Shown piece after piece: positions 8,493-60,759 of a stretch of DNA of 64,000 nucleotides; position 1 is the stretch's first letter, and the number at the start of each line of letters is the position of its first letter. The position numbers and the translations under genes are program-made. The DNA lies in the NCBI GenBank assembly GCA_000993205.1, contig LBVU01000004.1, forward strand, positions 124,113 to 188,112, written 5' to 3'. The DNA is from Candidatus Woesebacteria bacterium GW2011_GWB1_39_10 (GTDB taxonomy: Bacteria > Patescibacteriota > Microgenomatia > UBA8517). The notes beneath the pieces were generated by a model that was not told where the DNA came from, made no database searches, and was given only the letters and a program-made list of their open reading frames with translations.

Positions 8493-9620
8493 CTAACGAA
8501 CACCCTCAAGAATCCTCAAGGTTTCTCTGGCTGTCTTTTCCCAAGAAAACTTTTTCGCCTGAGCCAAACCACGGGCGATCATACTATTATACTTCGCTGT
8601 AGAAGCATTTATCACCTCTAAAATTCCGCTCGCTATGCTTTCTGCGTCTGTAGGATTAACCAATATTCCGCCATTCCCTACTACTTCCGGAAGGCTACCC
8701 ACACCAGACGCAACCACAGGCACCCCGCAAGCCATAGCGTTAACCGCGTCAAGTCCAAAACCCTCCCAGAAGGATGGCAATACAAATACTTTCGCCCCTT
8801 TTATTAAAGCCGGTTTGTCTTCATCGGAAACAAAATCTGTAAATATAATTTTGTCTTTTAATTTCAACTCGCTTACCTTCTTATATATCGAATCAAAAAG
8901 CCAACCCTTCTTTCCCGCAATAACAAGCTTGATTCCATACCTTGTGTTTCTGATTCGAGAAAAAGCATCTATCAAACCCTCTATATTCTTGCTGGGTTTG
9001 AGGGTTCCAAGATATAACACATAGTCATCAACTATGGAGTACCGATTTTTGACACGTCGCACATCTTTTTCTGAAATGTCAGGATTAAATCGTTTTGGGT
9101 CAAAACCCAAGTAAGTAACGTAAACTTTTTCTTTAGAAAACGGATAGTGTCGTACAATGTCTTTCTTTGTACTATTTGATATCGCAATGACCGACTTTGA
9201 TACTAAAATACTAATAGCACTCCACACCTTTAACTGCCAAAAGTCTTTTTTTTGAAATTGCCCCGTATATTCGAGGTATCCCAGGTCCATAATTGAACAA
9301 ACCTTGGGGATGGGAGCAAACATAGGAACATAATGACTTGGTGAGAAAAAAATGTCCGGTCTAGCCGGATCGAACAATAGATTTGGAATAAGCTTTGTCA
9401 TTACCCAAATCCCAACACTCGGAATAACTTTATATTTAAAGTTTTGCGTTTCCTTCGGCATATCAGATCTTGGGTCGTTTTTAAGATAAACTATAAGTTT
9501 ATGAGGATTTTCTTCTTTTTCCTGTAGTTTCTGCAAATTCCAAAGGATCTGAAAAGCATATTCGTTTATACCAACTCTCTTTTCTATATTAGCTTCATTT
9601 CCATCTATACCGATTATCAT
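8493..9620 (-). CDS. Glycosyltransferase family 4
   Basis: MIIGIDGNEANIEKRVGINEYAF N-terminal domain and FWEGFGLDAVNAMACGVPVVASGVGSLPEVV C-terminal motif. Confidence 0.85.
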   Translation of the reverse strand: MIIGIDGNEANIEKRVGINEYAFQILWNLQKLQEKEENPHKLIVYLKNDPRSDMPKETQNFKYKVIPSVGIWVMTKLIPNLLFDPARPDIFFSPSHYVPMFAPIPKVCSIMDLGYLEYTGQFQKKDFWQLKVWSAISILVSKSVIAISNSTKKDIVRHYPFSKEKVYVTYLGFDPKRFNPDISEKDVRRVKNRYSIVDDYVLYLGTLKPSKNIEGLIDAFSRIRNTRYGIKLVIAGKKGWLFDSIYKKVSELKLKDKIIFTDFVSDEDKPALIKGAKVFVLPSFWEGFGLDAVNAMACGVPVVASGVGSLPEVVGNGGILVNPTDAESIASGILEVINASTAKYNSMIARGLAQAKKFSWEKTARETLRILEGVR

Positions 9621-10714
9621 TTTACTCCTTCATTATATACTTCAAGTGTTTGTTTGGCAGTCGCCTCCCAAGAGAATTGTTTAACTCTCTCAAACCCATC
9701 CGTAATCAATCGTTTAGGTCCACGTAGCGCCTTAGTAATTCCTTCGGCAATAGAGTTGATGTCATATGGGTCCACCAGTACCGCAGCTCCTCCTGCGACC
9801 TCAGGCATCGAAGAAATATCAGACGTAACCACAGGAGTTCCACAGGCAAATGATTCTAGGATCGGCATTCCGTAACCCTCATACAATGATGGATAAACTA
9901 AAACCTCTGCCCCGGAATAAAAAACCGGTAATTCATTAAAAGAGACATGTCCCGCAACCCTTATATTTCTGGTTTCTTCAATTTTAGAGTATTTAGAATG
10001 TCCGACAAAAACGAGCTTCAGATCCATTCCCGCTCCTGCCAAATCAAAGGCTTTAATAATCCTATCGGTGTTTTTCCTTACGTTTATTCCTACCGCCAAA
10101 ACGTATTTACCAGATATTTTGTACCTTTTCTTTAACTTTTCGATTTCGTAATTCGTAGATGGTTTAAAAATGTTTGCCGGGGCTTCCGGAATCACTCTAA
10201 CAATATCACCTGTAAAACCCAAATTAATCAGATCGTTTTTAGTCGCAACCGACGGCACAACTATTCTCTCAGATTCTTTTTTTACCCACGAAAGCCTTAA
10301 TTTGTGTGTTTGAACAATGTCCCGAATTGTATCCCTTGGAAACAAGTTGGGATGCAGAATGGGAGCAAGGTCGTGAATGGTTGTTACTTTAAATGCTCTG
10401 GAAGGAGGCTCTGTCCAATCGGAAGTGTGGAGAACATCAACCGACCCCAACAGCTTTTCGATGGGCATCGTGTGAAGTTTGTTCCAAACCAGATTTGCAA
10501 ATATAGGAGGGTAGGCAAATATTTTAGATTGGACATTGGAAGCCCTAAAGCTCTGTGCTAAATGTTGAAGTTCCTTGTATCTTCTTAAAGACCCTCCAAA
10601 TAAAAGGTAGTCATTATTTTTGTCAAGAGACAAAAGCCCTTGCACTAAACTCTTAGTATAGGTAGAAACTCCGGTTCCAAAGATTGCCTGGGAAATATCA
10701 ATTGCTATTCGCAT
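9617..10714 (-). CDS. Glycosyltransferase family 4
   Basis: MRIAIDISQAIFGTGVSTY...YEGYGMPILESFACGTPVVTSDISSMPEVAGG. 4-bp overlap with the downstream gene. Confidence 0.85.
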   Translation of the reverse strand: MRIAIDISQAIFGTGVSTYTKSLVQGLLSLDKNNDYLLFGGSLRRYKELQHLAQSFRASNVQSKIFAYPPIFANLVWNKLHTMPIEKLLGSVDVLHTSDWTEPPSRAFKVTTIHDLAPILHPNLFPRDTIRDIVQTHKLRLSWVKKESERIVVPSVATKNDLINLGFTGDIVRVIPEAPANIFKPSTNYEIEKLKKRYKISGKYVLAVGINVRKNTDRIIKAFDLAGAGMDLKLVFVGHSKYSKIEETRNIRVAGHVSFNELPVFYSGAEVLVYPSLYEGYGMPILESFACGTPVVTSDISSMPEVAGGAAVLVDPYDINSIAEGITKALRGPKRLITDGFERVKQFSWEATAKQTLEVYNEGVK

Positions 10715-11999
10715 ATTTGTAAAAAACTACTCCGTTAAAGTTGGATTCCTGCGTCCTATTATAACCTAAACTTTCGATTTTCAGTCTCACAGAATCTTTT
10801 GGATCAAATATTTCCCAAACATACCTTGATAGCCAGATTTCAGTGTCACTCTTGCTAAGATCAGAGGTGCTCACAATCTGTCCACTCTTGCCGTAATAGA
10901 TCAATGCTTCTTTCTGTGAATTTGCCGGTAAAATTATCTTTTGATCTCCTATAGCATTTGCCGCACTCCTCCAATCTTCTCTTTGAAATCTGAAATCAGT
11001 TAAATAATAAAAAGTGCTCAGAATATTAACTGAAATTACTAAAACTAATAATATTTTTGAAAATTTTCCGGATTTTTCGACTCCTTTCGAAACCAACAAA
11101 CAAAATGCCGGCAAACAGAAAAGGAACCTGAAATATGCAAGCGTGGGTATTTTAAAACTAATCAAGACTCCGAGTACAATCGGCAACACAAACCAACCAC
11201 AAAGTAATCTGGAGCTTTTTCTAGCCTTGTATAATAGAAAGCCGAACAAACATATTCCAGCCGATGAAATCGCTGCATATAACAATTTATCATCGAAGCT
11301 AATTCTTCCAAAAATAAATTTAATTGGTATCAAGACTGTATTTTTAAAATTAGCTGGACCTAAAATATTCCACCAGGCAGAGTCCTTTAGAGAAATCCCG
11401 GACATGAGCTGTTTTTGAAATATTGGTAACCAAACAGCAAATACCGCAAGCATTGGAATATGACTTAATGCTAATTTTTTCCAATCTTTCAAACTAAAGA
11501 CCCAGAAAACCGGAATTACTAAAAGTGATGCATAATCCGTCATCGAAAGCATTGCCAAAATAATCGAGAAGTAAATCCACCTTTTTTCTAAAAATAAATA
11601 TATCAATACGGAAACCAACAGTGCGGCCAACGAATACATTCTTGCTTCTTGCGAATAATAAATATGCAGTCCCGAAATTGTCAAAAGTACCGAAGCGGTC
11701 AAACCAATATTTTTACTGAAAAGTTTTTTACCGACCAAATAAACTAGATAAACTGTTAAAATTCCAAAGATTATCGAAGGAGTGCGCAACGCAAGCTCCG
11801 AGTATCCAAAAAACCCCGACCAGAATTTTAAAACTAAATAATAAAAAGGGGGGTGGAAATCACCCGGCAAAAATTTAGTGAAAATATCACCTATGGGCAT
11901 TTTTGCAACCAACGCGCTGGTTGCCTCATCAAGCCATAAAGATTGATTCAGAGAAATCAAACGGAGAATCAACCCAAGGATAAGAATCAGGTATATCAT
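10698..11999 (-). CDS. ArnT/PMT_2-family GT-C glycosyltransferase (polyprenyl-phosphate-sugar-dependent)
   Basis: LWLDEATSALVAKMPIGDIF...PPFYYLVLKFWSGFFG aligns with the ArnT N-terminal loop (WQPDETRYAEISREML...KPIAGYWINSIGQWLFG). 433 aa, more than 10 TM helices. Confidence 0.8.
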   Translation of the reverse strand: MIYLILILGLILRLISLNQSLWLDEATSALVAKMPIGDIFTKFLPGDFHPPFYYLVLKFWSGFFGYSELALRTPSIIFGILTVYLVYLVGKKLFSKNIGLTASVLLTISGLHIYYSQEARMYSLAALLVSVLIYLFLEKRWIYFSIILAMLSMTDYASLLVIPVFWVFSLKDWKKLALSHIPMLAVFAVWLPIFQKQLMSGISLKDSAWWNILGPANFKNTVLIPIKFIFGRISFDDKLLYAAISSAGICLFGFLLYKARKSSRLLCGWFVLPIVLGVLISFKIPTLAYFRFLFCLPAFCLLVSKGVEKSGKFSKILLVLVISVNILSTFYYLTDFRFQREDWRSAANAIGDQKIILPANSQKEALIYYGKSGQIVSTSDLSKSDTEIWLSRYVWEIFDPKDSVRLKIESLGYNRTQESNFNGVVFYKYANSN

Positions 12000-12832
12000 T
12001 TGGCACCCTTCTTTGTAAACAAATATTCCAAAATCCCCACAAATATTCCAAAATCATAAACAATTTTGAAAATCGTAAATCGTAAATCATAAATCTTAAA
12101 TCCTTTATACATTCCGATAACCAATGAGGTCGGGAAAAATGCTCTAATTAGTCCTCCCAGATACCCCAAATACCCAAATTTATATTTTCTTTTGCCCGCC
12201 CATTTGGCCTGGTCAAATATCTCAACTAAATCTTCCGGATTTTTGTGATAGAAAATTGCTCCATCCGCACTTACCGCCTCATACCCCAACTTTTTATAAA
12301 GGCTCCAGTCATCATCGTAACCTCCGGGGGTAAACCCCCCTACTCTGTCAAATTCACTTTTTAGAATTGCCCTAAAAACCGGCTGGTGGTTAGAGTAGTT
12401 TTTGGGGTGACGGCGTTTAGGTTCCCAACCTTCGTTAATATTCCAGCACGTGGCCCAAACATTGTCCCAATTGGCAACATATTCCTCCTTGCTAAATGTT
12501 CCCCTCGCCCTTCCTTTTTCGATCGGCGCCGTCAATTTCTTTAAAAAATCCTTATCAAAAGTCATATCAGCATCCACAAAAACCAATATCTTGCCCTTTG
12601 CTTTACTTGCCCCCAAGTTTCTCGCCGCCCCCGCCCCACCATGCTCTGCATGGAATTTTCGAATTTCGAATTTCGAATTTCGAATTTCTGACAACAACTT
12701 CCAGGTGTTGTCAGTCGATCCATCATCCACAACAATCACTTCAAAATCACCATACGTTTGAAGACCCAACGACTCCAAACAGGCTTCCAAGTTTTGTCTT
12801 TCATTGTAGGTTGGAATTATTATCGAGATCAT
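11996..12832 (-). CDS. Glycosyltransferase family 2 containing in-frame heptanucleotide tandem repeats
   Basis: MISIIIPTYNERQNLEACLESL...VIVVDDGSTDNT...ILVFVDADMTF. The coding sequence contains (gaatttc)x4-5 at 12653-12688 and a (aaatcNt)x5 array plus a 20-bp duplication at 12019-12104. Confidence 0.85.
   Translation of the reverse strand: MISIIIPTYNERQNLEACLESLGLQTYGDFEVIVVDDGSTDNTWKLLSEIRNSKFEIRKFHAEHGGAGAARNLGASKAKGKILVFVDADMTFDKDFLKKLTAPIEKGRARGTFSKEEYVANWDNVWATCWNINEGWEPKRRHPKNYSNHQPVFRAILKSEFDRVGGFTPGGYDDDWSLYKKLGYEAVSADGAIFYHKNPEDLVEIFDQAKWAGKRKYKFGYLGYLGGLIRAFFPTSLVIGMYKGFKIYDLRFTIFKIVYDFGIFVGILEYLFTKKGAK
12019..12104. repeat. Direct repeats at the 3' end of the GT2 gene: 20-bp duplication (acaaatattccaaaatc...) and (aaatcgt / aaatcat / aaatctt / aaatcct) x5
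   Basis: Read directly at 12019-12055 and 12070-12104. Encodes the C-terminal KIYDLRFTIFKIVYDFGIFVGILEYLF segment. Confidence 0.85.
12653..12688. repeat. Heptanucleotide tandem repeat (gaatttc) x4 perfect, plus one imperfect unit, inside the GT2 coding sequence
   Basis: Sequence ggaattttc gaatttc gaatttc gaatttc gaatttc tg read directly. It encodes EIRNSKFEIRKFH between the DDGSTD and ARN motifs of the GT2. Confidence 0.9.
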
Positions 12833-12890: not shown

Positions 12891-13544
12891 ATGAGAAAAT
12901 CAAATCAGGTGGGGGCACATTTCGATAAAATTGCAAATTCTTATGATTTATATAAAAAAAATAACCAATACTATTACGACAACCTCAAAATACTTCTTGC
13001 GTCGTTCATTCACTCAAAATCAAAGGTATTAGAGATCGGTTGCGGCACCGGCGACCTGATTGCTTCTCTCAAGCCTGAGTATGGAATGGGCTTTGATATA
13101 AGCAATAAAATGATCGCTATCGCAAAAAGAAAACATAGAAATATTCATTTTTCAACGCATTGGCCAAAACAAAAATTTGATTACATTTTTATGAGTGATG
13201 TAGTAGAACATCTTGAATATCCGGACGAAACATTTCGTAAAATTTCCAAGCTCATGAATTGTAAATCTATATTTATTTGCACCATGGCAAATCCGAAACT
13301 GGAGCCAATTTTGATGATCGCAGAAAAAATGAAATTAAAAATGCCGGAAGGACCACATTATAGAATTAAGTACAAGGATCTAAGATCGATGATTGAAGAT
13401 TCCGGAATGGAAATAAGAGAGCACAATTTTAAACTTTTAATACCAATCAAAATTCCGCTTATTACCTATTTTGCAAATAAATATTTGGAGAGGTTTTTTA
13501 GAAAATACGCATTTATTGAATACTTTACGGCTACCAAGTCTTAA
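12891..13544 (+). CDS. Class I SAM-dependent methyltransferase
   Basis: Motif I VLEIGCGTGDL. Motif II region DYIFMSDVVEHL. 217 aa. Confidence 0.85.
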   Translation: MRKSNQVGAHFDKIANSYDLYKKNNQYYYDNLKILLASFIHSKSKVLEIGCGTGDLIASLKPEYGMGFDISNKMIAIAKRKHRNIHFSTHWPKQKFDYIFMSDVVEHLEYPDETFRKISKLMNCKSIFICTMANPKLEPILMIAEKMKLKMPEGPHYRIKYKDLRSMIEDSGMEIREHNFKLLIPIKIPLITYFANKYLERFFRKYAFIEYFTATKS

Positions 13545-14697
13545 ACTCTTTAAAAGCGGAGGCAGCTGTAGCAAGAAGCATTAATCCGTGTTTAAATCTC
13601 CTAATATTGGTTGCCCCATATACTCTTTCTTTATATCTAACCGGAATTTCCACAACTTTCAGATTATTTCTGACTGCGCCAAATATCAAATCAAAATCTC
13701 CAAAAGGATCAGACTTTGAGTGTTTAAAATTCATATAATCTTTTCGGAAAAAGGCTTTCGTTCCACAAAGAGTATCTTTAAATCTCTGTCCCAAGATCCA
13801 GGAAAATATTAAGCTGAACATTTTGTTACCGATTTTGTTTAATGTCTGCATGGCTTGGGCTTCCATGGGGTAAACCAGCCGGCTGCCGTTGGCAAATTCT
13901 CCGACTCCGTCGGATAGGGCGTTGTAAAATTTATTCAAGTCACTGCCGTCCACAGTCCTGTCCGCGTCATATATCATTAATATTTCATTTGATGCTTTTG
14001 AAAAACCCATTCTTACGGCATCTGCTTTTCCAATTCCCTTCTGTTTAAAAACTTTTACATTTCCATGCTTGGCCGCCACTTTTTTGATTTCGTCCCATGT
14101 TGCGTCATTCGAATGTCCTTCAATAAATATGTACTCTTGAGCTTTCCCAAAAATGGGAATTGAGGGAATAATTTTTGCGATATTCTTTTCTTCGTTCCTT
14201 GCCGGAATGATTATGGAAACTGAATATTTTTTAGCCCCAATTGGCTTGGGCCTGGCAATAACCAGAGTTATTAAACAAAAATTATTTAATATGGGCAAGT
14301 TTGCCAGATATTTATTGAAAAATTCCGTGATCAAGGGAATTATGACGGGTATTAGAACTCTTTTTTGTGTACTAATTACCTCAAATCCGGCGAGGTTTAA
14401 AAGTCCCGCCAAGTCGTATTCGTCTAACCAGTTTTGAGTACCAACAGTTCTTCTTAGCCCCAATTTTGACGCAAAAGATAAGAGCGGTTCCCAAAGATGA
14501 TTGTAATATGTTATTAGGATTCTAGTGTTTTCCGGTTTTGCCTTGTGAAGTTTTTCAAAATATTTTTGCAAATCGGGAGTACTCCCGATCACATTGTCCA
14601 AAACCACAACATTTTTTCCTTTCCGACCACCCAAGAATCTTTTGTGAATTTTTAGAAGTTCTTTTTTATAAAATTTTTGAAAGATATTGTCCGCCAT
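13531..14697 (-). CDS. GT2 glycosyltransferase (DPM1/GtrB-like catalytic domain) fused to an N-terminal methyltransferase-like domain with a degenerate SAM motif
   Basis: The C-terminal half has YSVSIIIPARNEEKNIAKII...MIYDADRT..GTKAF. The N-terminal roughly 150 aa align with the neighbouring methyltransferase: ILITYYNHLWEPLLSFASKLGL versus IFICTMANPKLEPILMIAEKMKL, and KRVLIPVIIPLITEFFNKYL versus FKLLIPIKIPLITYFANKYL. Motif I is replaced by VVVLDNVIGSTPD. Confidence 0.8.
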   Translation of the reverse strand: MADNIFQKFYKKELLKIHKRFLGGRKGKNVVVLDNVIGSTPDLQKYFEKLHKAKPENTRILITYYNHLWEPLLSFASKLGLRRTVGTQNWLDEYDLAGLLNLAGFEVISTQKRVLIPVIIPLITEFFNKYLANLPILNNFCLITLVIARPKPIGAKKYSVSIIIPARNEEKNIAKIIPSIPIFGKAQEYIFIEGHSNDATWDEIKKVAAKHGNVKVFKQKGIGKADAVRMGFSKASNEILMIYDADRTVDGSDLNKFYNALSDGVGEFANGSRLVYPMEAQAMQTLNKIGNKMFSLIFSWILGQRFKDTLCGTKAFFRKDYMNFKHSKSDPFGDFDLIFGAVRNNLKVVEIPVRYKERVYGATNIRRFKHGLMLLATAASAFKEFKTW

Positions 14698-58210: not shown

Positions 58211-59626
58211 TTATCTCACTATATTTATCCCGGGTGCAACACTTCTCAGAATATTGACCACTTCTTTCTTATCGTCCATTTTACGGAGTAGTTTACCTAC
58301 TACATTGACTATATTCACAGCTTCTTTTTTTCCTTTGATTAAAAATATCCGCTCACTAATTGTTTTTTGCTTATCTTCTGTATCATTGATCAGTTTTTCA
58401 TGCAATTTTTCTCCACGCCTAATACCGGAGTACTTTATTTTAATATCAGTTTCTGGGCTCAGACCGGAAAGTTTTATCATAAGCCTGGCCAAGTCGTCAA
58501 TCTTAATCGATTCGCCCATATCAAGCATAAACACTTCTCCCCCATCTTTGATTAAAAAACCTGCATATAAAACCAGCTGAACTGCTTCAGGAATTGTCAT
58601 AAAGTACCTGGTCATTTGTTTGTCTGTCACGATAACCGGACCGCCTTTAGCAATCTGTTTCTTGAACGTAGGGATAACACTTCCTTGGCTTCCTAAGACA
58701 TTTCCAAATCTAACCGAGCAAAATTTTGTCTTCCCTTTCGAATTGTAAAATGTCACTAGTTTCTCTGACAACAATTTAGTTGCGCCCATTATGCTCGACG
58801 GCTCAACTGCTTTATCGGTTGAAATATTAACAAATTTTTTTACTCCGAATTTTATTGCCGACAATATAATATTTTTTGTACCAAACACGTTGTTTTTAAT
58901 TGCTTCTTGCGGAAATTCTTCCATTAAAGGAACGTGCTTATATGCAGCGGCATGAAAAATTATCTCAGGTTTAGTACTATTGAAAATTTCTTCGATTCTT
59001 TTTTTGTCTTGAATATTGGCAACTATGCATTCAAAATCATTTTTGCCTCCGATATCAGATAACTCCAAGCCAAGTTCGTAAAGACCACTCTCCCAAAAAT
59101 CTAAAGCTATCAATTTTTTTGGGTTAAATGACAATATTTGCCTACATATCTCAGAACCAATTGACCCGGCTGCGCCGGTTATTAAAACAGTTTTATTTTT
59201 AAACTCATTCTTAAATAAAGATTGTTCCGATTGAACAATGGCCCTACCAAGTAAATCGCTTATCTCAATTTCCCTGACTTTGGAAAGTTTTACCTTCCCT
59301 TCTACGATTTCTAAAAGTCTGGGAACTATTTTAAAAATGACTTTGTGCTCTTCACAGTTTTTAATAACCTCTCTAATTAAAGAGCCGTTAGCTGATGGTA
59401 TCGCTATAAAAACTTCAGAAATTTTAAATTTTTTGATTAACCTTGAAAGTTCGCTGATTCTACCTATGATTTTAATACCATTTACTTTCTTAAAATTCAA
59501 ATCTTCTTTATCGTCTAGAAAACCTGCAATTTTATACCGATTTCTGAAATGTTTTTGAATTTCCTCCGAAAGTTCTTCGCCGGCAACTCCGGCACCAACA
59601 ATTATTATATTTTCTTTCTTATTCAT
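58211..59626 (-). CDS. UDP-N-acetylglucosamine 4,6-dehydratase, long soluble CapD/PglF/WbpM-like (Polysacc_synt_2 with N-terminal CoA-binding-like domain)
   Basis: IIIVGAGVAGEEL N-terminal domain. The dehydratase domain has VLITGAAGSIGSE, IFHAAAYKHVPLME, ISTDKAVEPSSIMGATK, VRFGNVLGSQGSVIPTF and MTRYFM. 471 aa, with no TM segments. Confidence 0.8.
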   Translation of the reverse strand: MNKKENIIIVGAGVAGEELSEEIQKHFRNRYKIAGFLDDKEDLNFKKVNGIKIIGRISELSRLIKKFKISEVFIAIPSANGSLIREVIKNCEEHKVIFKIVPRLLEIVEGKVKLSKVREIEISDLLGRAIVQSEQSLFKNEFKNKTVLITGAAGSIGSEICRQILSFNPKKLIALDFWESGLYELGLELSDIGGKNDFECIVANIQDKKRIEEIFNSTKPEIIFHAAAYKHVPLMEEFPQEAIKNNVFGTKNIILSAIKFGVKKFVNISTDKAVEPSSIMGATKLLSEKLVTFYNSKGKTKFCSVRFGNVLGSQGSVIPTFKKQIAKGGPVIVTDKQMTRYFMTIPEAVQLVLYAGFLIKDGGEVFMLDMGESIKIDDLARLMIKLSGLSPETDIKIKYSGIRRGEKLHEKLINDTEDKQKTISERIFLIKGKKEAVNIVNVVGKLLRKMDDKKEVVNILRSVAPGINIVR

Positions 59627-60759
59627 ATCTTATTAATAAAATCCATTATTTTTCGCGCCGATTCATTGATGTTGAAATCTCCAGCTGCAACAATGGTATT
59701 TTTTGAAAACCTATTCCTTTTTTTCTTTTGATTTGGCAATTGTACTATTAAATTGGCTAACTGTCTAAAATTCTCTTTTTCAAATGTTACACCTACTTTG
59801 TATTTATTAACCAGATATTTAAGATCCGGTAAATTTGATGCAATTATCGGAGTTCCGACTTTCATTGCCTCAGAAAAAACAAGCGGAATACTATCGCTTC
59901 TGGAAGGAATTACCAACCAATCTGACCCCGCAATGACATTACTTATTTTTTGAAAATCGTTTACATTCCCATAAAAATTTATTTGTTTACCTAAACCATA
60001 TTTCTCGGCTTTTTGTCTAAGCATGACTTGAAGCGACCCCCCCCCAATAAAATTAATTTTGTATTTAGATAAATCATTTCTAACCAGAAACAATGCCTCT
60101 AACAATATATCGGGACCTTTAACAGATTCCATCCGTCCAACAAAAGTTAAAACTATTTTGTTTATTTTTTCCTTGACCATATTGATCTTGAAACTTGCCT
60201 TTGTTGCCGAAGGTATAAAAATACATTTTTTACCCGACAATTCAGTCGTTTTTTCTGCCAAATCAATACCGTCAGCAAAAACAAAATCCGCATTACTCAA
60301 CACACGCTCAATGATCTGTTTAAGGATAGGTTTTTTGCTATAAACATAAATATCAGATCCAAGGCACCATACAACGTATGGTATTCCGAAAATTTTTTTG
60401 GCAATATAAGCAAACACACCCGATGGAAATGCCCACATAACTATGTTTATTGAAATTTTATTTTTCTTGATAAATAGAGGTAGATAATACATTCCTCCAA
60501 TAAAAAAAGCGGTAAATTTTAAAATATCTATCGGGTTCCAAAATCTTAAGCTTCCCAACTTATTACCCTTAGTGACTACAAAGTTAGTTATTTTAACTTT
60601 TCCAATTTTATCGGCGCGGTTATTTTCAATGGGGGTAAGTACGAATACCTTTTCGCTTTCTGCTAATTCCTGGGCAATGTCATTAACAAATATTCCGGCA
60701 TTTTGCCTATCTTTCAAACTTGTTGGAAAATTATGTGTAATAATGCCAATATTTTTCAT
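59623..60759 (-). CDS. Glycosyltransferase family 4
   Basis: SDSIPLVFSEAMKVGTPIIASNLPDLKYLV. The start ATG abuts the TAA of the upstream PMT-like gene. Confidence 0.85.
   Translation of the reverse strand: MKNIGIITHNFPTSLKDRQNAGIFVNDIAQELAESEKVFVLTPIENNRADKIGKVKITNFVVTKGNKLGSLRFWNPIDILKFTAFFIGGMYYLPLFIKKNKISINIVMWAFPSGVFAYIAKKIFGIPYVVWCLGSDIYVYSKKPILKQIIERVLSNADFVFADGIDLAEKTTELSGKKCIFIPSATKASFKINMVKEKINKIVLTFVGRMESVKGPDILLEALFLVRNDLSKYKINFIGGGSLQVMLRQKAEKYGLGKQINFYGNVNDFQKISNVIAGSDWLVIPSRSDSIPLVFSEAMKVGTPIIASNLPDLKYLVNKYKVGVTFEKENFRQLANLIVQLPNQKKKRNRFSKNTIVAAGDFNINESARKIMDFINKI

What the first reader, a model, noticed from the sequence alone, without database searches (positions are those of the whole stretch)
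12019..12688. Heptanucleotide tandem repeats inside a GT2 coding sequence: possible slipped-strand phase-variation switch
Within the GT2 gene at 11996..12832 there is a perfect (gaatttc)x4 array with a fifth imperfect unit (12653-12688). Near the 3' end there is a second 7-bp array (aaatcgt/aaatcat/aaatctt/aaatcct, 12070-12104) next to a 20-bp direct duplication. Seven is not a multiple of three, so gain or loss of one unit would frameshift the enzyme. The first array lies in a variable linker between the DDGSTD and ARN motifs, where length changes are tolerated only in units of three repeats. Repeat-mediated ON/OFF switching of glycosyltransferases is well known in host-associated bacteria, but it has not been described for this kind of organism.
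Basis: partly seen in the sequence, partly recalled or inferred. Interest (0 to 1): 0.6.

Follow-up and report, generated by a model that had tools for sequence, protein, structure and literature searches.

The report
Slippery 7-base repeat in glycosyltransferase
A perfect 7-base tandem repeat sits inside a sugar-transferase gene of an ultra-small groundwater bacterium; a sister population has lost one unit, which breaks the gene, but here it is always intact, so it is a proven frameshift hot-spot and only a possible on/off switch.

Summary
Window 12653-12688 holds (GAAATTC)x4 plus a fifth 8-nt unit on the coding (-) strand of a 278-aa GT2 gene. The run is 32 nt; the maximum in 200 simulated windows was 20.

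The organism is a Microgenomates/Woesebacteria CPR bacterium from Rifle groundwater.

The repeat is not private to this gene. Orthologs in other species carry perfect 7-nt arrays at the same codons with different units (ACTGTTC, AGTTTAC, AACTGTC, AATCTCC, AATTTCC). This segment changes far faster than the rest of the gene.

A related Woesebacteria species carries the identical array. One of its contigs (L240) has one unit fewer. That splits the gene into 87-aa and 196-aa ORFs and is its only frame-breaking lesion, so slippage happens in nature.

In the window's own species every assembly is ON with the same copy number. Predicted +/-1, 2 and 3-unit products are absent from 15 billion proteins. 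Overall about 57 contigs are ON and 1 is OFF, against 65.6% OFF for the benchmark NeuO.

Identical arrays also sit in frame in essential genes elsewhere (LeuRS, GatA, UppS, PolA).

Verdict: a frameshift-prone coding microsatellite. An adaptive phase-variation switch is plausible but unproven, at about 0.3.

The parts
11996..12832 (-). GT2 (GT-A fold) glycosyltransferase gene, 278 aa, acceptor unknown
   Evidence: ORF. Pfam PF00535 E = 1.3e-36. AF2 mean pLDDT 92. Foldseek hits to GT-A enzymes CgT, RmlT and TarS. The exact protein is on 20 contigs of Rifle groundwater assemblies and is named Microgenomates/Woesebacteria.
12653..12688 (-). Heptanucleotide array 1: (GAAATTC)x4 + GAAAATTC = 36 nt = codons 49-60 (EIRNSKFEIRKF). 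The perfectly periodic run is 12657-12688. It is the slippage-prone element.
   Evidence: statistics. (end of alpha2, loop, beta3). (+/-1 or 2 units give 71-94 aa products; +/-3 units give 271 or 285 aa). (ssDNA hairpin, -9.4 kcal/mol, z = -2.0). The homologous array in L240 lacks one unit.
12070..12104 (-). Heptanucleotide array 2, degenerate: (nGATTTA)x5 on the coding strand, codons about 244-255 (GFKIYDLRFTIF). Only 19 nt are perfectly periodic.
   Evidence: The peptide IYDLRFT is the exact translation of (GATTTAC)3. Homolog P0005 has IYNLQFT, which is the translation of (AATTTAC)3. The DNA-level array is shared only with L008, the 77% ortholog. A +/-1 unit change would alter only the C-terminal helix.
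12020..12055 (-). 20-bp-period near-duplication (GATTTTGGAATATTTG twice on the coding strand), encoding DFGIF and GILEYL in two different frames
   Evidence: The peptide YDFGIFVGILEYL and the 20-nt periodicity are conserved across orthologs (mean period-20 score 0.41, many at 0.5 or above). It is an old coding feature, not a recent duplication.
12710..12727 (-). DDGSTD nucleotide-sugar-binding motif (residues 36-41), immediately upstream of array 1
12566..12574 (-). DAD (DxD) catalytic metal-binding motif (residues 87-89). It is lost in every +/-1 or +/-2 unit frameshift product.
11996..11999 (-). ATGA overlap: the GT2 stop codon overlaps the start codon of the downstream gene, so translational coupling is likely
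   Evidence: ORF coordinates (GT2 11996..12832, downstream gene 10698..11999). Coupling itself is an inference.
10698..11999 (-). Downstream PMT_2 (GT-C, family 39-like) membrane glycosyltransferase, 433 aa. Probable operon partner, and probably affected by polarity when the GT2 gene is frameshifted.
   Evidence: Pfam PF13231 E = 4.2e-10. The GT2-PMT_2 adjacency is conserved in every related locus examined.

Best explanation
Array 1 is a coding heptanucleotide microsatellite. It belongs to the widespread, still unexplained class of prokaryotic heptamer tandem repeats.

It occupies 12 codons of the GT-A core of a GT2 glycosyltransferase: the end of alpha2, a loop, and most of beta3. All three reading phases of the 7-nt unit are translated.

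Slipped-strand mispairing changes the unit number. This step is shown by a natural -1-unit allele in a related species carrying the identical array. A change of 1 or 2 units shifts the frame and gives a 71-94 aa stump without the DxD motif, so the enzyme is null. It probably also lowers translation of the overlapping downstream GT-C gene (inferred). A change of 3 units stays in frame.

Over evolutionary time this segment turns over much faster than the rest of the gene. Arrays become homogenised to new units, and whole cassettes are swapped by recombination between co-occurring strains.

In the window's organism the gene is kept ON by purifying selection, and the short array (4.6 copies) probably slips only rarely (inferred). 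The element is therefore a frameshift hot-spot that can produce loss-of-function variants of a surface-glycan pathway. It has not been shown to be a selected, reversible, high-frequency switch.
For: - Non-random perfect array that forces rare codons.
- Among 81 orthologous genes, perfect arrays of 3 or more copies with periods 5-11 number 8. All have period 7 and all start at aligned residues 49-54. The period-7 score peaks there at a mean of 0.51, against a background of 0.275 +/- 0.10.
- Different units occupy the same codons: GAAATTC, ACTGTTC, AGTTTAC, AACTGTC, AATTTCC and AATCTCC (predicted from the peptide).
- The window unit differs from the L070 unit at position 4 in every copy, which is the mark of concerted change.
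- Backbones that are 85-95% identical carry unrelated site-1 segments: L010/L026 95%, L028/L031 89%, window/L008 85%.
- L247 and L248 encode an identical PMT_2, but one has the array cassette and the other a non-array cassette. Divergence is confined to two patches.
- Natural -1-unit allele L240: 3.6 copies, ORFs of 87 + 196 aa, 98.7% identical to L011 with this single gap, and the frame is otherwise intact. Its 87-aa product is in the protein collection, which serves as a positive control for the exact look-up.
- ON predominance: 20 contigs of the window species; no frameshifted allele through either neighbour look-up; no +/-1, 2 or 3 products; 80 of 80 species representatives single-frame; 13 of 13 contigs of the (AATCTCC) lineage ON.
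- (GAAATTC)3.6-4.9 arrays lie in frame in LeuRS, IleRS/ValRS-type synthetase, GatA, UppS, MurG, LepA, PolA, HisRS, TrmD, MiaA, LigA and Map in other metagenome contigs.
- Heptamer over-representation and a preference for about 4 units are already reported.
Against: - Two heptamer arrays lie in one 837-nt gene, when 0.03 are expected per 64 kb.
- The array lies early in the gene (17-21% of its length).
- The gene is a surface-glycan enzyme, the classic target of contingency loci.
- A second glycosyltransferase in the window carries a G9 tract in a 35% GC genome.
- Perfect arrays persist in several lineages despite their mutational cost.
- The OFF allele in L240 has no other frame-disrupting lesion.

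All of these fit a selected phase-variation locus. Consensus assemblies cannot see minority variants at 1e-2 to 1e-4, so low-frequency switching in the window species is not excluded. The L240 allele rests on one assembled contig and was not checked against reads.
Confidence: 0.6

Rival explanations
1. This is a true contingency locus. The array is maintained by second-order selection as a reversible ON/OFF switch of a GT2 and GT-C surface-glycosylation step. Sub-populations of this episymbiotic CPR bacterium would then differ in surface glycan, for example to escape phages or to change host attachment.
For: - A -1-unit OFF allele with no other frame-disrupting lesion in a related species with the identical array.
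- Frameshift products lack the DxD motif.
- The array lies in the first fifth of the gene.
- Two arrays in one gene against 0.03 expected per window.
- Perfect arrays with lineage-specific units persist at the same codons in the family.
- A G9 tract in another glycosyltransferase of the same window.
- The array forms an ssDNA hairpin of -9.4 kcal/mol, which may favour slippage.
- Heptanucleotide switches of surface-modifying enzymes are known, such as NeuO.
Against: - About 57 contigs are ON and 1 is OFF, and 80 of 80 species representatives are ON. NeuO is 65.6% OFF with 3-53 copies.
- The copy number never exceeds about 5.
- No variant product of the window species exists among 15 billion proteins.
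- In many orthologs the array has decayed.
- Identical arrays occur in essential genes, where switching cannot be the function.
- Reversibility and switching rate are untested.
Confidence: 0.3
2. The repeat acts at the nucleic-acid level. It could be a binding-site array or a hairpin that regulates transcription or translation of the GT2/PMT_2 operon. On this view the peptide is only tolerated.
For: - The array is quasi-palindromic (it contains TTCGAA) and folds as ssDNA at -9.4 kcal/mol, z = -2.0.
- In some high-GC metagenome contigs the same arrays lie upstream of genes or as inverted pairs (L154, L184, L167, L172, L195).
Against: - Orthologs carry unrelated, non-palindromic units at the same codons. 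A sequence-specific binder or a conserved hairpin is therefore unlikely.
- Array 2 has no structure (-0.7 kcal/mol).
- No Rfam family matches anywhere in the window.
- Within one species an array cassette and a non-array cassette occur next to an identical downstream gene.
Confidence: 0.05
3. The repeat is a recent, neutral, private duplication in this genome with no special dynamics, or a chance or assembly artefact.
For: No copy-number variation is seen within the window species.
Against: - The same 32-nt array is present in independent assemblies from several samples and assemblers.
- It is also present in at least two other lineages about 71-72% identical in protein (L010, L011).
- Other units occur at the same codons in more distant orthologs.
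- Simulations never reach even 21 nt.
Confidence: 0.03

Closest known systems
NeuO, the phage-borne K1-capsule O-acetyltransferase of E. coli, with (AAGACTC)n in the 5' coding region (PMC13001214)
   Same: A heptanucleotide repeat inside the coding sequence of a surface-polysaccharide-modifying enzyme. Full-length translation occurs only at certain unit numbers. All three phases of the unit are translated into a 7-aa periodic peptide.
   Different: NeuO has 3-53 units, with 20-21 common. It is OFF in 65.6% of 64 genomes, and minority alleles of 20 and 22 units were measured in culture. Its repeat forms an N-terminal extension. Here there are 4.6 units and the count is fixed. The repeat encodes core alpha2-beta3 elements, about 57 contigs are ON against 1 OFF, and no switching rate has been measured.
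Haemophilus influenzae heptanucleotide SSRs: (TGAAAGA)n upstream of hmw1A/hmw2A, (AATTTTG)14 inside hmw1A of strain PittAA, and (AACAACC)n in a TonB-dependent receptor gene (PMC2651432)
   Same: Heptamer SSRs associated with surface proteins. The intragenic tracts produce frameshifted or truncated ORFs in some strains.
   Different: Those tracts have 8-38 units and their number differs between strains. The organism is a host-adapted pathogen. The hmw promoter tracts modulate transcription rather than the reading frame.
Neisseria pglE, a pilin-glycan glycosyltransferase with CAAACAA heptanucleotide repeats (recalled from memory, not checked here)
   Same: A glycosyltransferase whose reading frame depends on the number of heptanucleotide units.
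   Different: As I recall it, the repeat number differs between strains in a human pathogen. I did not test this comparison with the tools.
Generic prokaryotic heptamer tandem repeats: Mori et al. 2019 SPADE (PMC6344855); GGGNATC arrays of Xanthomonas and Nostoc (PMC4692102); cyanobacterial STRR
   Same: The unit length is 7 nt and the preferred array size is about 4 units. Period 7 is over-represented relative to neighbouring periods, as my own counts also show. Function is unknown.
   Different: Published arrays are mostly intergenic, and in Xanthomonas and Nostoc they are G-rich and thought to form quadruplexes. This array is AT-rich, cannot form a G4, lies in frame in a coding sequence, and sits at a site that carries such arrays across a whole gene family.
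Hypervariable PTD-repeat gene of a Gracilibacterium, a CPR bacterium (PMC6851277)
   Same: A slippage-prone tandem repeat inside a gene of a CPR bacterium, discussed there in terms of slipped-strand mispairing and population diversity.
   Different: That repeat has a 9-nt unit, so it is always in frame and varies only in peptide length and composition. It forms a long array in an extracellular protein. It is not an ON/OFF frameshift.

Membership tests
SSR-driven phase-variable (contingency) locus | A tandem repeat whose unit is not a multiple of 3, lying inside the ORF or promoter, so that unit changes alter expression | tested here: met
   A 7-nt unit with 4.6 perfect copies at codons 49-60. 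A change of 1 or 2 units gives 71-94 aa products without the DxD motif.
SSR-driven phase-variable (contingency) locus | Repeat-number polymorphism between strains or within populations of the same species | tested here: inconclusive
   Window species: none in 20 contigs, none through either neighbour look-up, and no +/-1, 2 or 3 products. Related species with the identical array: one -1-unit allele (L240), against 11 full-length cluster-member sequences listed on 19 contigs.
SSR-driven phase-variable (contingency) locus | A substantial share of OFF genotypes and a wide range of unit numbers across genomes (benchmark NeuO: 65.6% OFF, 3-53 units) | tested here: not met
   About 57 contigs ON and 1 OFF. 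All 80 species-representative orthologs are single-frame. Perfect arrays range only from 2.9 to 4.9 copies.
SSR-driven phase-variable (contingency) locus | High-frequency, reversible switching measured in a clonal population | not testable with these tools
   This needs read pile-ups, amplicon sequencing or a reporter assay. The organism is uncultivated.
SSR-driven phase-variable (contingency) locus | The switch changes a surface or host-interaction phenotype | not testable with these tools
   Only the context supports it. The gene lies in a glycan cluster with GT4, GT-C (PMT_2), a methyltransferase, an epimerase and a second GT2.
Glycosyltransferase family 2 (GT-A fold) | A match to PF00535 above its cut-off, the DDGSTD and DxD motifs, and a GT-A fold | tested here: met
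   126.5 bits against a cut-off of 23.3. D36-D41 and D87-A-D89 are invariant in 33 homologs. AF2 mean pLDDT is 92, and Foldseek E-values to CgT, RmlT, TarS and SpsA are 1e-13 to 1e-11.
Prokaryotic heptamer tandem-repeat class | Tandem 7-nt units, arrays of about 4 units, and period 7 over-represented relative to periods 5, 6 and 8-11 | tested here: met
   In 504 kb of Microgenomates loci there are 11 period-7 arrays against 0-2 for each of periods 5, 6 and 8-11. Metagenome (GAAATTC) arrays peak at 25-27 nt and 30-34 nt. The literature agrees.
Prokaryotic heptamer tandem-repeat class | Predominantly intergenic location | tested here: not met
   This array and many metagenome (GAAATTC) arrays lie in frame inside intact ORFs.

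The most novel reading that the evidence does not exclude
Woesebacteria/Microgenomates (CPR bacteria) keep a hypervariable heptamer-array cassette at a fixed site of a GT2 gene as a genuine contingency locus. Slippage would switch a GT2 and GT-C surface-glycosylation step OFF and ON, while unit turnover and cassette recombination diversify the locus. This would be the first frameshift-type phase variation described in the Candidate Phyla Radiation and in a free-living groundwater community.
Probability: 0.25. Interest if true: 0.75.

Novelty: new member of a known kind. Interest (0 to 1): 0.6.

Why it matters
Frameshift switching by simple sequence repeats is a hallmark of host-adapted pathogens. 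If it operates in CPR bacteria, these minimal, probably episymbiotic cells also hedge their surface-glycan phenotype, most plausibly against phages or in host attachment.

The locus is directly testable. Public Rifle time-series reads already exist, and one natural OFF allele has been found.

Independently of the switch question, this gene family offers a clean natural example of how a coding microsatellite evolves when all three phases of its unit are translated. The array stays at a fixed site with a fixed size, while its units are replaced in concert and whole cassettes are exchanged.

It also bears on the old, unexplained excess of 7-nt repeats in prokaryotes. The preference for about 4 units holds for an AT-rich unit that cannot form a G-quadruplex, and such arrays survive in frame inside essential genes.

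Tried and rejected
1. The metagenome scan for (GAAATTC)x3 was meant to give the copy-number spectrum of the GT2 array.

2. A composite query made of out-of-frame tail peptides, run against 5.8 billion proteins, found nothing. It also missed the OFF product P0255, which is known to be in the collection. This negative result is therefore uninformative.

I worked around this by using homologs returned.

4. Logan contigs (assumed here to be built with k = 31) break inside the array, at gene nt 148/149 and 173/174. I considered this as evidence for heterogeneity and rejected it. Fully periodic 31-mers are shared with other loci carrying the same array, which is enough to break a k = 31 graph.

5. 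I asked whether (GAAATTC)n is a special dispersed element. Probably not: viral contigs give 3 hits, against 10 and 5 for composition-matched, six-frame-open control units.

6. I asked whether array units are filtered for being free of stop codons. They are not: 25 of 52 are open in all six frames, against 50% expected.

7. I rejected DGR, CRISPR, DNA-uptake-sequence and transposon-footprint ideas by reasoning. There is only one array per 64 kb here, the units differ between lineages, and there is no template repeat.

8. Rfam found nothing in the window.

9. The G9 tract in the GT4 gene: predicted G8 and G10 products are absent from the collection.
Full report
**What is there**

The ORF at 11996-12832 on the - strand encodes a 278-aa family-2 glycosyltransferase. 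Pfam PF00535 matches at E = 1.3e-36. The AlphaFold model has mean pLDDT 92, and the closest solved folds are generic GT-A enzymes: CgT, RmlT, TarS/TarP and SpsA.

The exact protein is annotated in four Rifle groundwater MAGs of the Microgenomates/Woesebacteria group, part of the Candidate Phyla Radiation.

The gene sits in a glycan cluster with GT4 genes, a methyltransferase, a second GT2 and an epimerase. Its stop codon overlaps, as ATGA, the start of a PMT_2 (GT-C) membrane glycosyltransferase.

On the coding strand, 12653-12688 reads (GAAATTC)x4 followed by GAAAATTC. That is 36 nt, or codons 49-60, EIRNSKFEIRKF. The perfectly periodic run is 32 nt.

In 200 second-order-Markov simulations of the window, the longest period-7 run never exceeded 20 nt. 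Runs of 19 nt or more are expected 0.03 times per window, yet two occur, both in this gene.

Given the peptide, the chance of drawing these codons from local usage is 9.5e-7. The repeat forces the rare codons CGA, TCG and TTC.

The second array (12070-12104) and the 20-bp near-duplication (12020 and 12040) are also real.

The array does not lie in a free linker. It encodes the last residue of helix alpha2, a loop, and most of strand beta3 of the Rossmann-like core. It aligns without gaps to chondroitin synthase.

**The family picture**

A scan of one genome per species returned 80 orthologs at 47-77% identity.

Among these and the window gene, perfect tandem arrays of 3 or more copies with periods 5-11 number eight. 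All eight have period 7, and all start at aligned residues 49-54.

The units differ by lineage:

| Lineage | Unit |
|---|---|
| window, L010, L011 | GAAATTC |
| L028 | ACTGTTC |
| L069 | AGTTTAC |
| L082 | AACTGTC |
| L087 | AATTTCC |
| L070 | alternating AATTTCC/AATTTCA |

Arrays of 2.9-3.0 copies occur in L020, L045, L054 and L074.

I predicted a further unit, AATCTCC, from the peptide NLQSPISNL and then confirmed it in DNA.

The period-7 score peaks at this site, with a family mean of 0.51 against a background of 0.275 +/- 0.10. About a third of orthologs score 0.68 or above.

The common family peptide TISNFxF is itself the translation of an (AATTTCC)-type array. The window unit differs from the L070 unit at position 4 in every copy. 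These are the marks of concerted change within an array.

**Turnover is fast and partly recombinational**

Backbones that are 85-95% identical outside this segment carry unrelated segments: L010/L026 at 95%, L028/L031 at 89%, and window/L008 at 85%.

Contigs L247 and L248 encode an identical PMT_2 protein. One has the array cassette and the other a non-array cassette, and divergence is confined to two short patches. This explains why the identical 32-nt array is found in genes only about 71-72% identical overall.

**Does it slip?**

Yes. A related Woesebacteria species (the L011 lineage) carries the identical array, although its protein is only 71% identical to the window's.

The 90% cluster of P0007 contains a 196-aa member, P0128. 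Its 75,954-nt contig, L240, carries TCG(GAAATTC)x3GAAAATTG. That is 3.6 copies instead of 4.6, and it splits the gene into 87-aa and 196-aa ORFs.

The L240 gene is 98.7% identical to the ON allele L011, with four mismatches and this one 7-nt gap. The rest of the frame is intact.

A contig with a nearly identical PMT_2 (L241) is ON.

The 87-aa product is present in the protein collection. This also validates exact look-up as a detector of OFF alleles.

**Is it a switch in this organism?**

There is no evidence for that.

- Twenty contigs from several samples and assemblers encode the exact ON protein.
- Look-ups through the two neighbouring genes read 19 and 24 contigs. They showed either the intact gene or a contig end, never a frameshift.
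- All loci that span the array have the same 32 nt and no mismatch in the gene.
- The predicted products of -3, -2, -1, +1, +2 and +3 units are absent from about 15 billion proteins.

Across array-bearing lineages I count about 57 ON contigs and 1 OFF. All 80 species representatives are single-frame.

The validated heptanucleotide switch NeuO shows 3-53 units and is OFF in 65.6% of 64 genomes. Here perfect arrays never exceed 4.9 copies.

**Context that weakens the adaptive reading**

The metagenome scan for (GAAATTC)x3 hit its limit at 120 loci, and none is a GT2 ortholog.

The arrays are 21-45 nt long, with peaks at 25-27 nt and 30-34 nt, in contigs of 30-70% GC. Many lie in frame inside intact housekeeping genes. 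Pfam confirmed LeuRS, an IleRS/ValRS-type synthetase, GatA, UppS, MurG, LepA, PolA, HisRS, HutH, TrmD, MiaA, LigA, a Mur ligase and Map.

Two GatA proteins 47.7% identical, and two UppS proteins 38.9% identical, share the same IRNSKFEIRNL array at the same site. I interpret this as repeated expansion of a proto-repeat by 21 nt. The conserved peptide EIRN, written GAAATTCGAAAT, is already 1.7 copies. Adding three units gives the 32-34 nt peak.

Control units are as frequent as GAAATTC in viral contigs, so this unit is not special.

Period 7 is strongly over-represented relative to periods 5, 6 and 8-11 in every data set I hold. This agrees with published but unexplained observations, including a preference for about four units.

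An in-frame heptamer array of 4-5 copies is therefore not, by itself, a sign of a selected switch.

**What still favours a switch**

- Two arrays lie in one gene.
- The array lies early in the gene.
- The gene's function is in surface glycans.
- The natural OFF allele has no other frame-disrupting lesion.
- Another glycosyltransferase of the window carries a G9 tract in a 35% GC genome.
- The array forms a moderately stable ssDNA hairpin.

Consensus assemblies cannot see minority alleles.

**The other two features**

Array 2 is degenerate, because its units differ in their first base. At DNA level it is shared only with the 77% ortholog L008. It has no secondary structure. Its peptide IYDLRFT is nevertheless the exact translation of (GATTTAC)3, and a homolog has IYNLQFT, the translation of (AATTTAC)3. 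It therefore looks like an older, decayed array.

The 20-bp duplication encodes the conserved DFGIF and GILEYL peptides in two different frames. It is conserved across the family, so it is not recent.

**Verdict**

The finding is real and far from chance.

The claim that this is a functioning phase-variation switch in this organism is not supported by the available consensus data. I put it at about 0.3.

The best-supported description is a persistent, concertedly evolving, recombining coding microsatellite that acts as a frameshift hot-spot. No paper in the searchable library describes frameshift phase variation in CPR bacteria.

Noticed in passing
window 60037-60045 (inside the ORF at 59623-60759, - strand): A C9 tract, G9 on the coding strand, encodes GGG in the motif FIGGGSL of a 378-aa GT4-type glycosyltransferase. 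It sits in a genome of about 35% GC. It is the longest G/C homopolymer in the window and is the classic phase-variation type of repeat. Predicted G8 and G10 products are not in the protein collection, and the wild type is on 14 contigs.
   Followed up: partly
L088-L207 (metagenome loci), e.g. L175:435-2996, L197:7324-8787, L185:1522-2235, L125:3122-6052: (GAAATTC) arrays of 3.6-4.9 copies lie in frame inside intact essential genes (LeuRS, GatA, UppS, PolA, LepA, MurG, HisRS, TrmD and others) in contigs of 30-70% GC. How an in-frame array of 7-nt units arises in an essential gene without a lethal frameshift intermediate is unexplained.
   Followed up: partly
L197 vs L205 (GatA); L185 vs L194 (UppS): Proteins only 47.7% and 38.9% identical share the identical IRNSKFEIRNL heptamer array at the same position. 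This suggests repeated +21-nt expansion from a conserved proto-repeat: EIRN written as GAAATTCGAAAT is already 1.7 copies.
   Followed up: partly
L135, L148, L157, L162, L180, L133 (metagenome loci): Some contigs carry 4-7 heptamer arrays with different units within 8-15 kb. Of the 120 loci, 53 have two or more arrays. Periods 5, 6 and 8-11 are almost absent. Heptamer-rich genomes therefore exist across a wide GC range. The preference for about 4 units holds for AT-rich units too, which argues against the G-quadruplex explanation proposed for Xanthomonas and Nostoc.
   Followed up: partly
L247:647-1504 vs L248:273-1109; L240 vs L241 (gene nt 673-769): The GT2 gene is a recombination mosaic within species. 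Next to identical or near-identical PMT_2 genes, short patches are replaced by strongly divergent sequence. The patches are site 1, an indel region around residues 100-112, and a C-terminal patch that includes site 2.
   Followed up: partly
L209, L210, L219, L220 (Logan contigs of the window species): These contigs end inside the array, at gene nt 148/149 and 173/174. The fully periodic 31-mers are shared with other loci carrying the same array, assuming the assemblies use k = 31. This is a practical warning that short-k assemblies fragment at such repeats.
   Followed up: yes
L002:7230-7450 (NCBI MAG LBXI01000010.1), corresponding to the window GT4 gene at 9617-10714: In the 2015 MAG the neighbouring GT4 gene lacks 124 nt and has about 30 divergent bases at the junction. 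This splits it into 68-aa and 213-aa ORFs, whereas other assemblies have the intact 365-aa gene. It could be a local mis-assembly or a real deletion variant.
   Followed up: partly
window 13531-14697 (- strand): A 388-aa protein combines the C-terminal part of a methyltransferase-like domain (residues 29-109) with a GT2 domain (residues 161-306). It lies next to a separate, divergently transcribed methyltransferase gene.
   Followed up: no
window 12335-12340 and 11848-11853: Short C6 and G6 tracts lie inside and just downstream of the GT2 gene. They are probably too short to matter.
   Followed up: no
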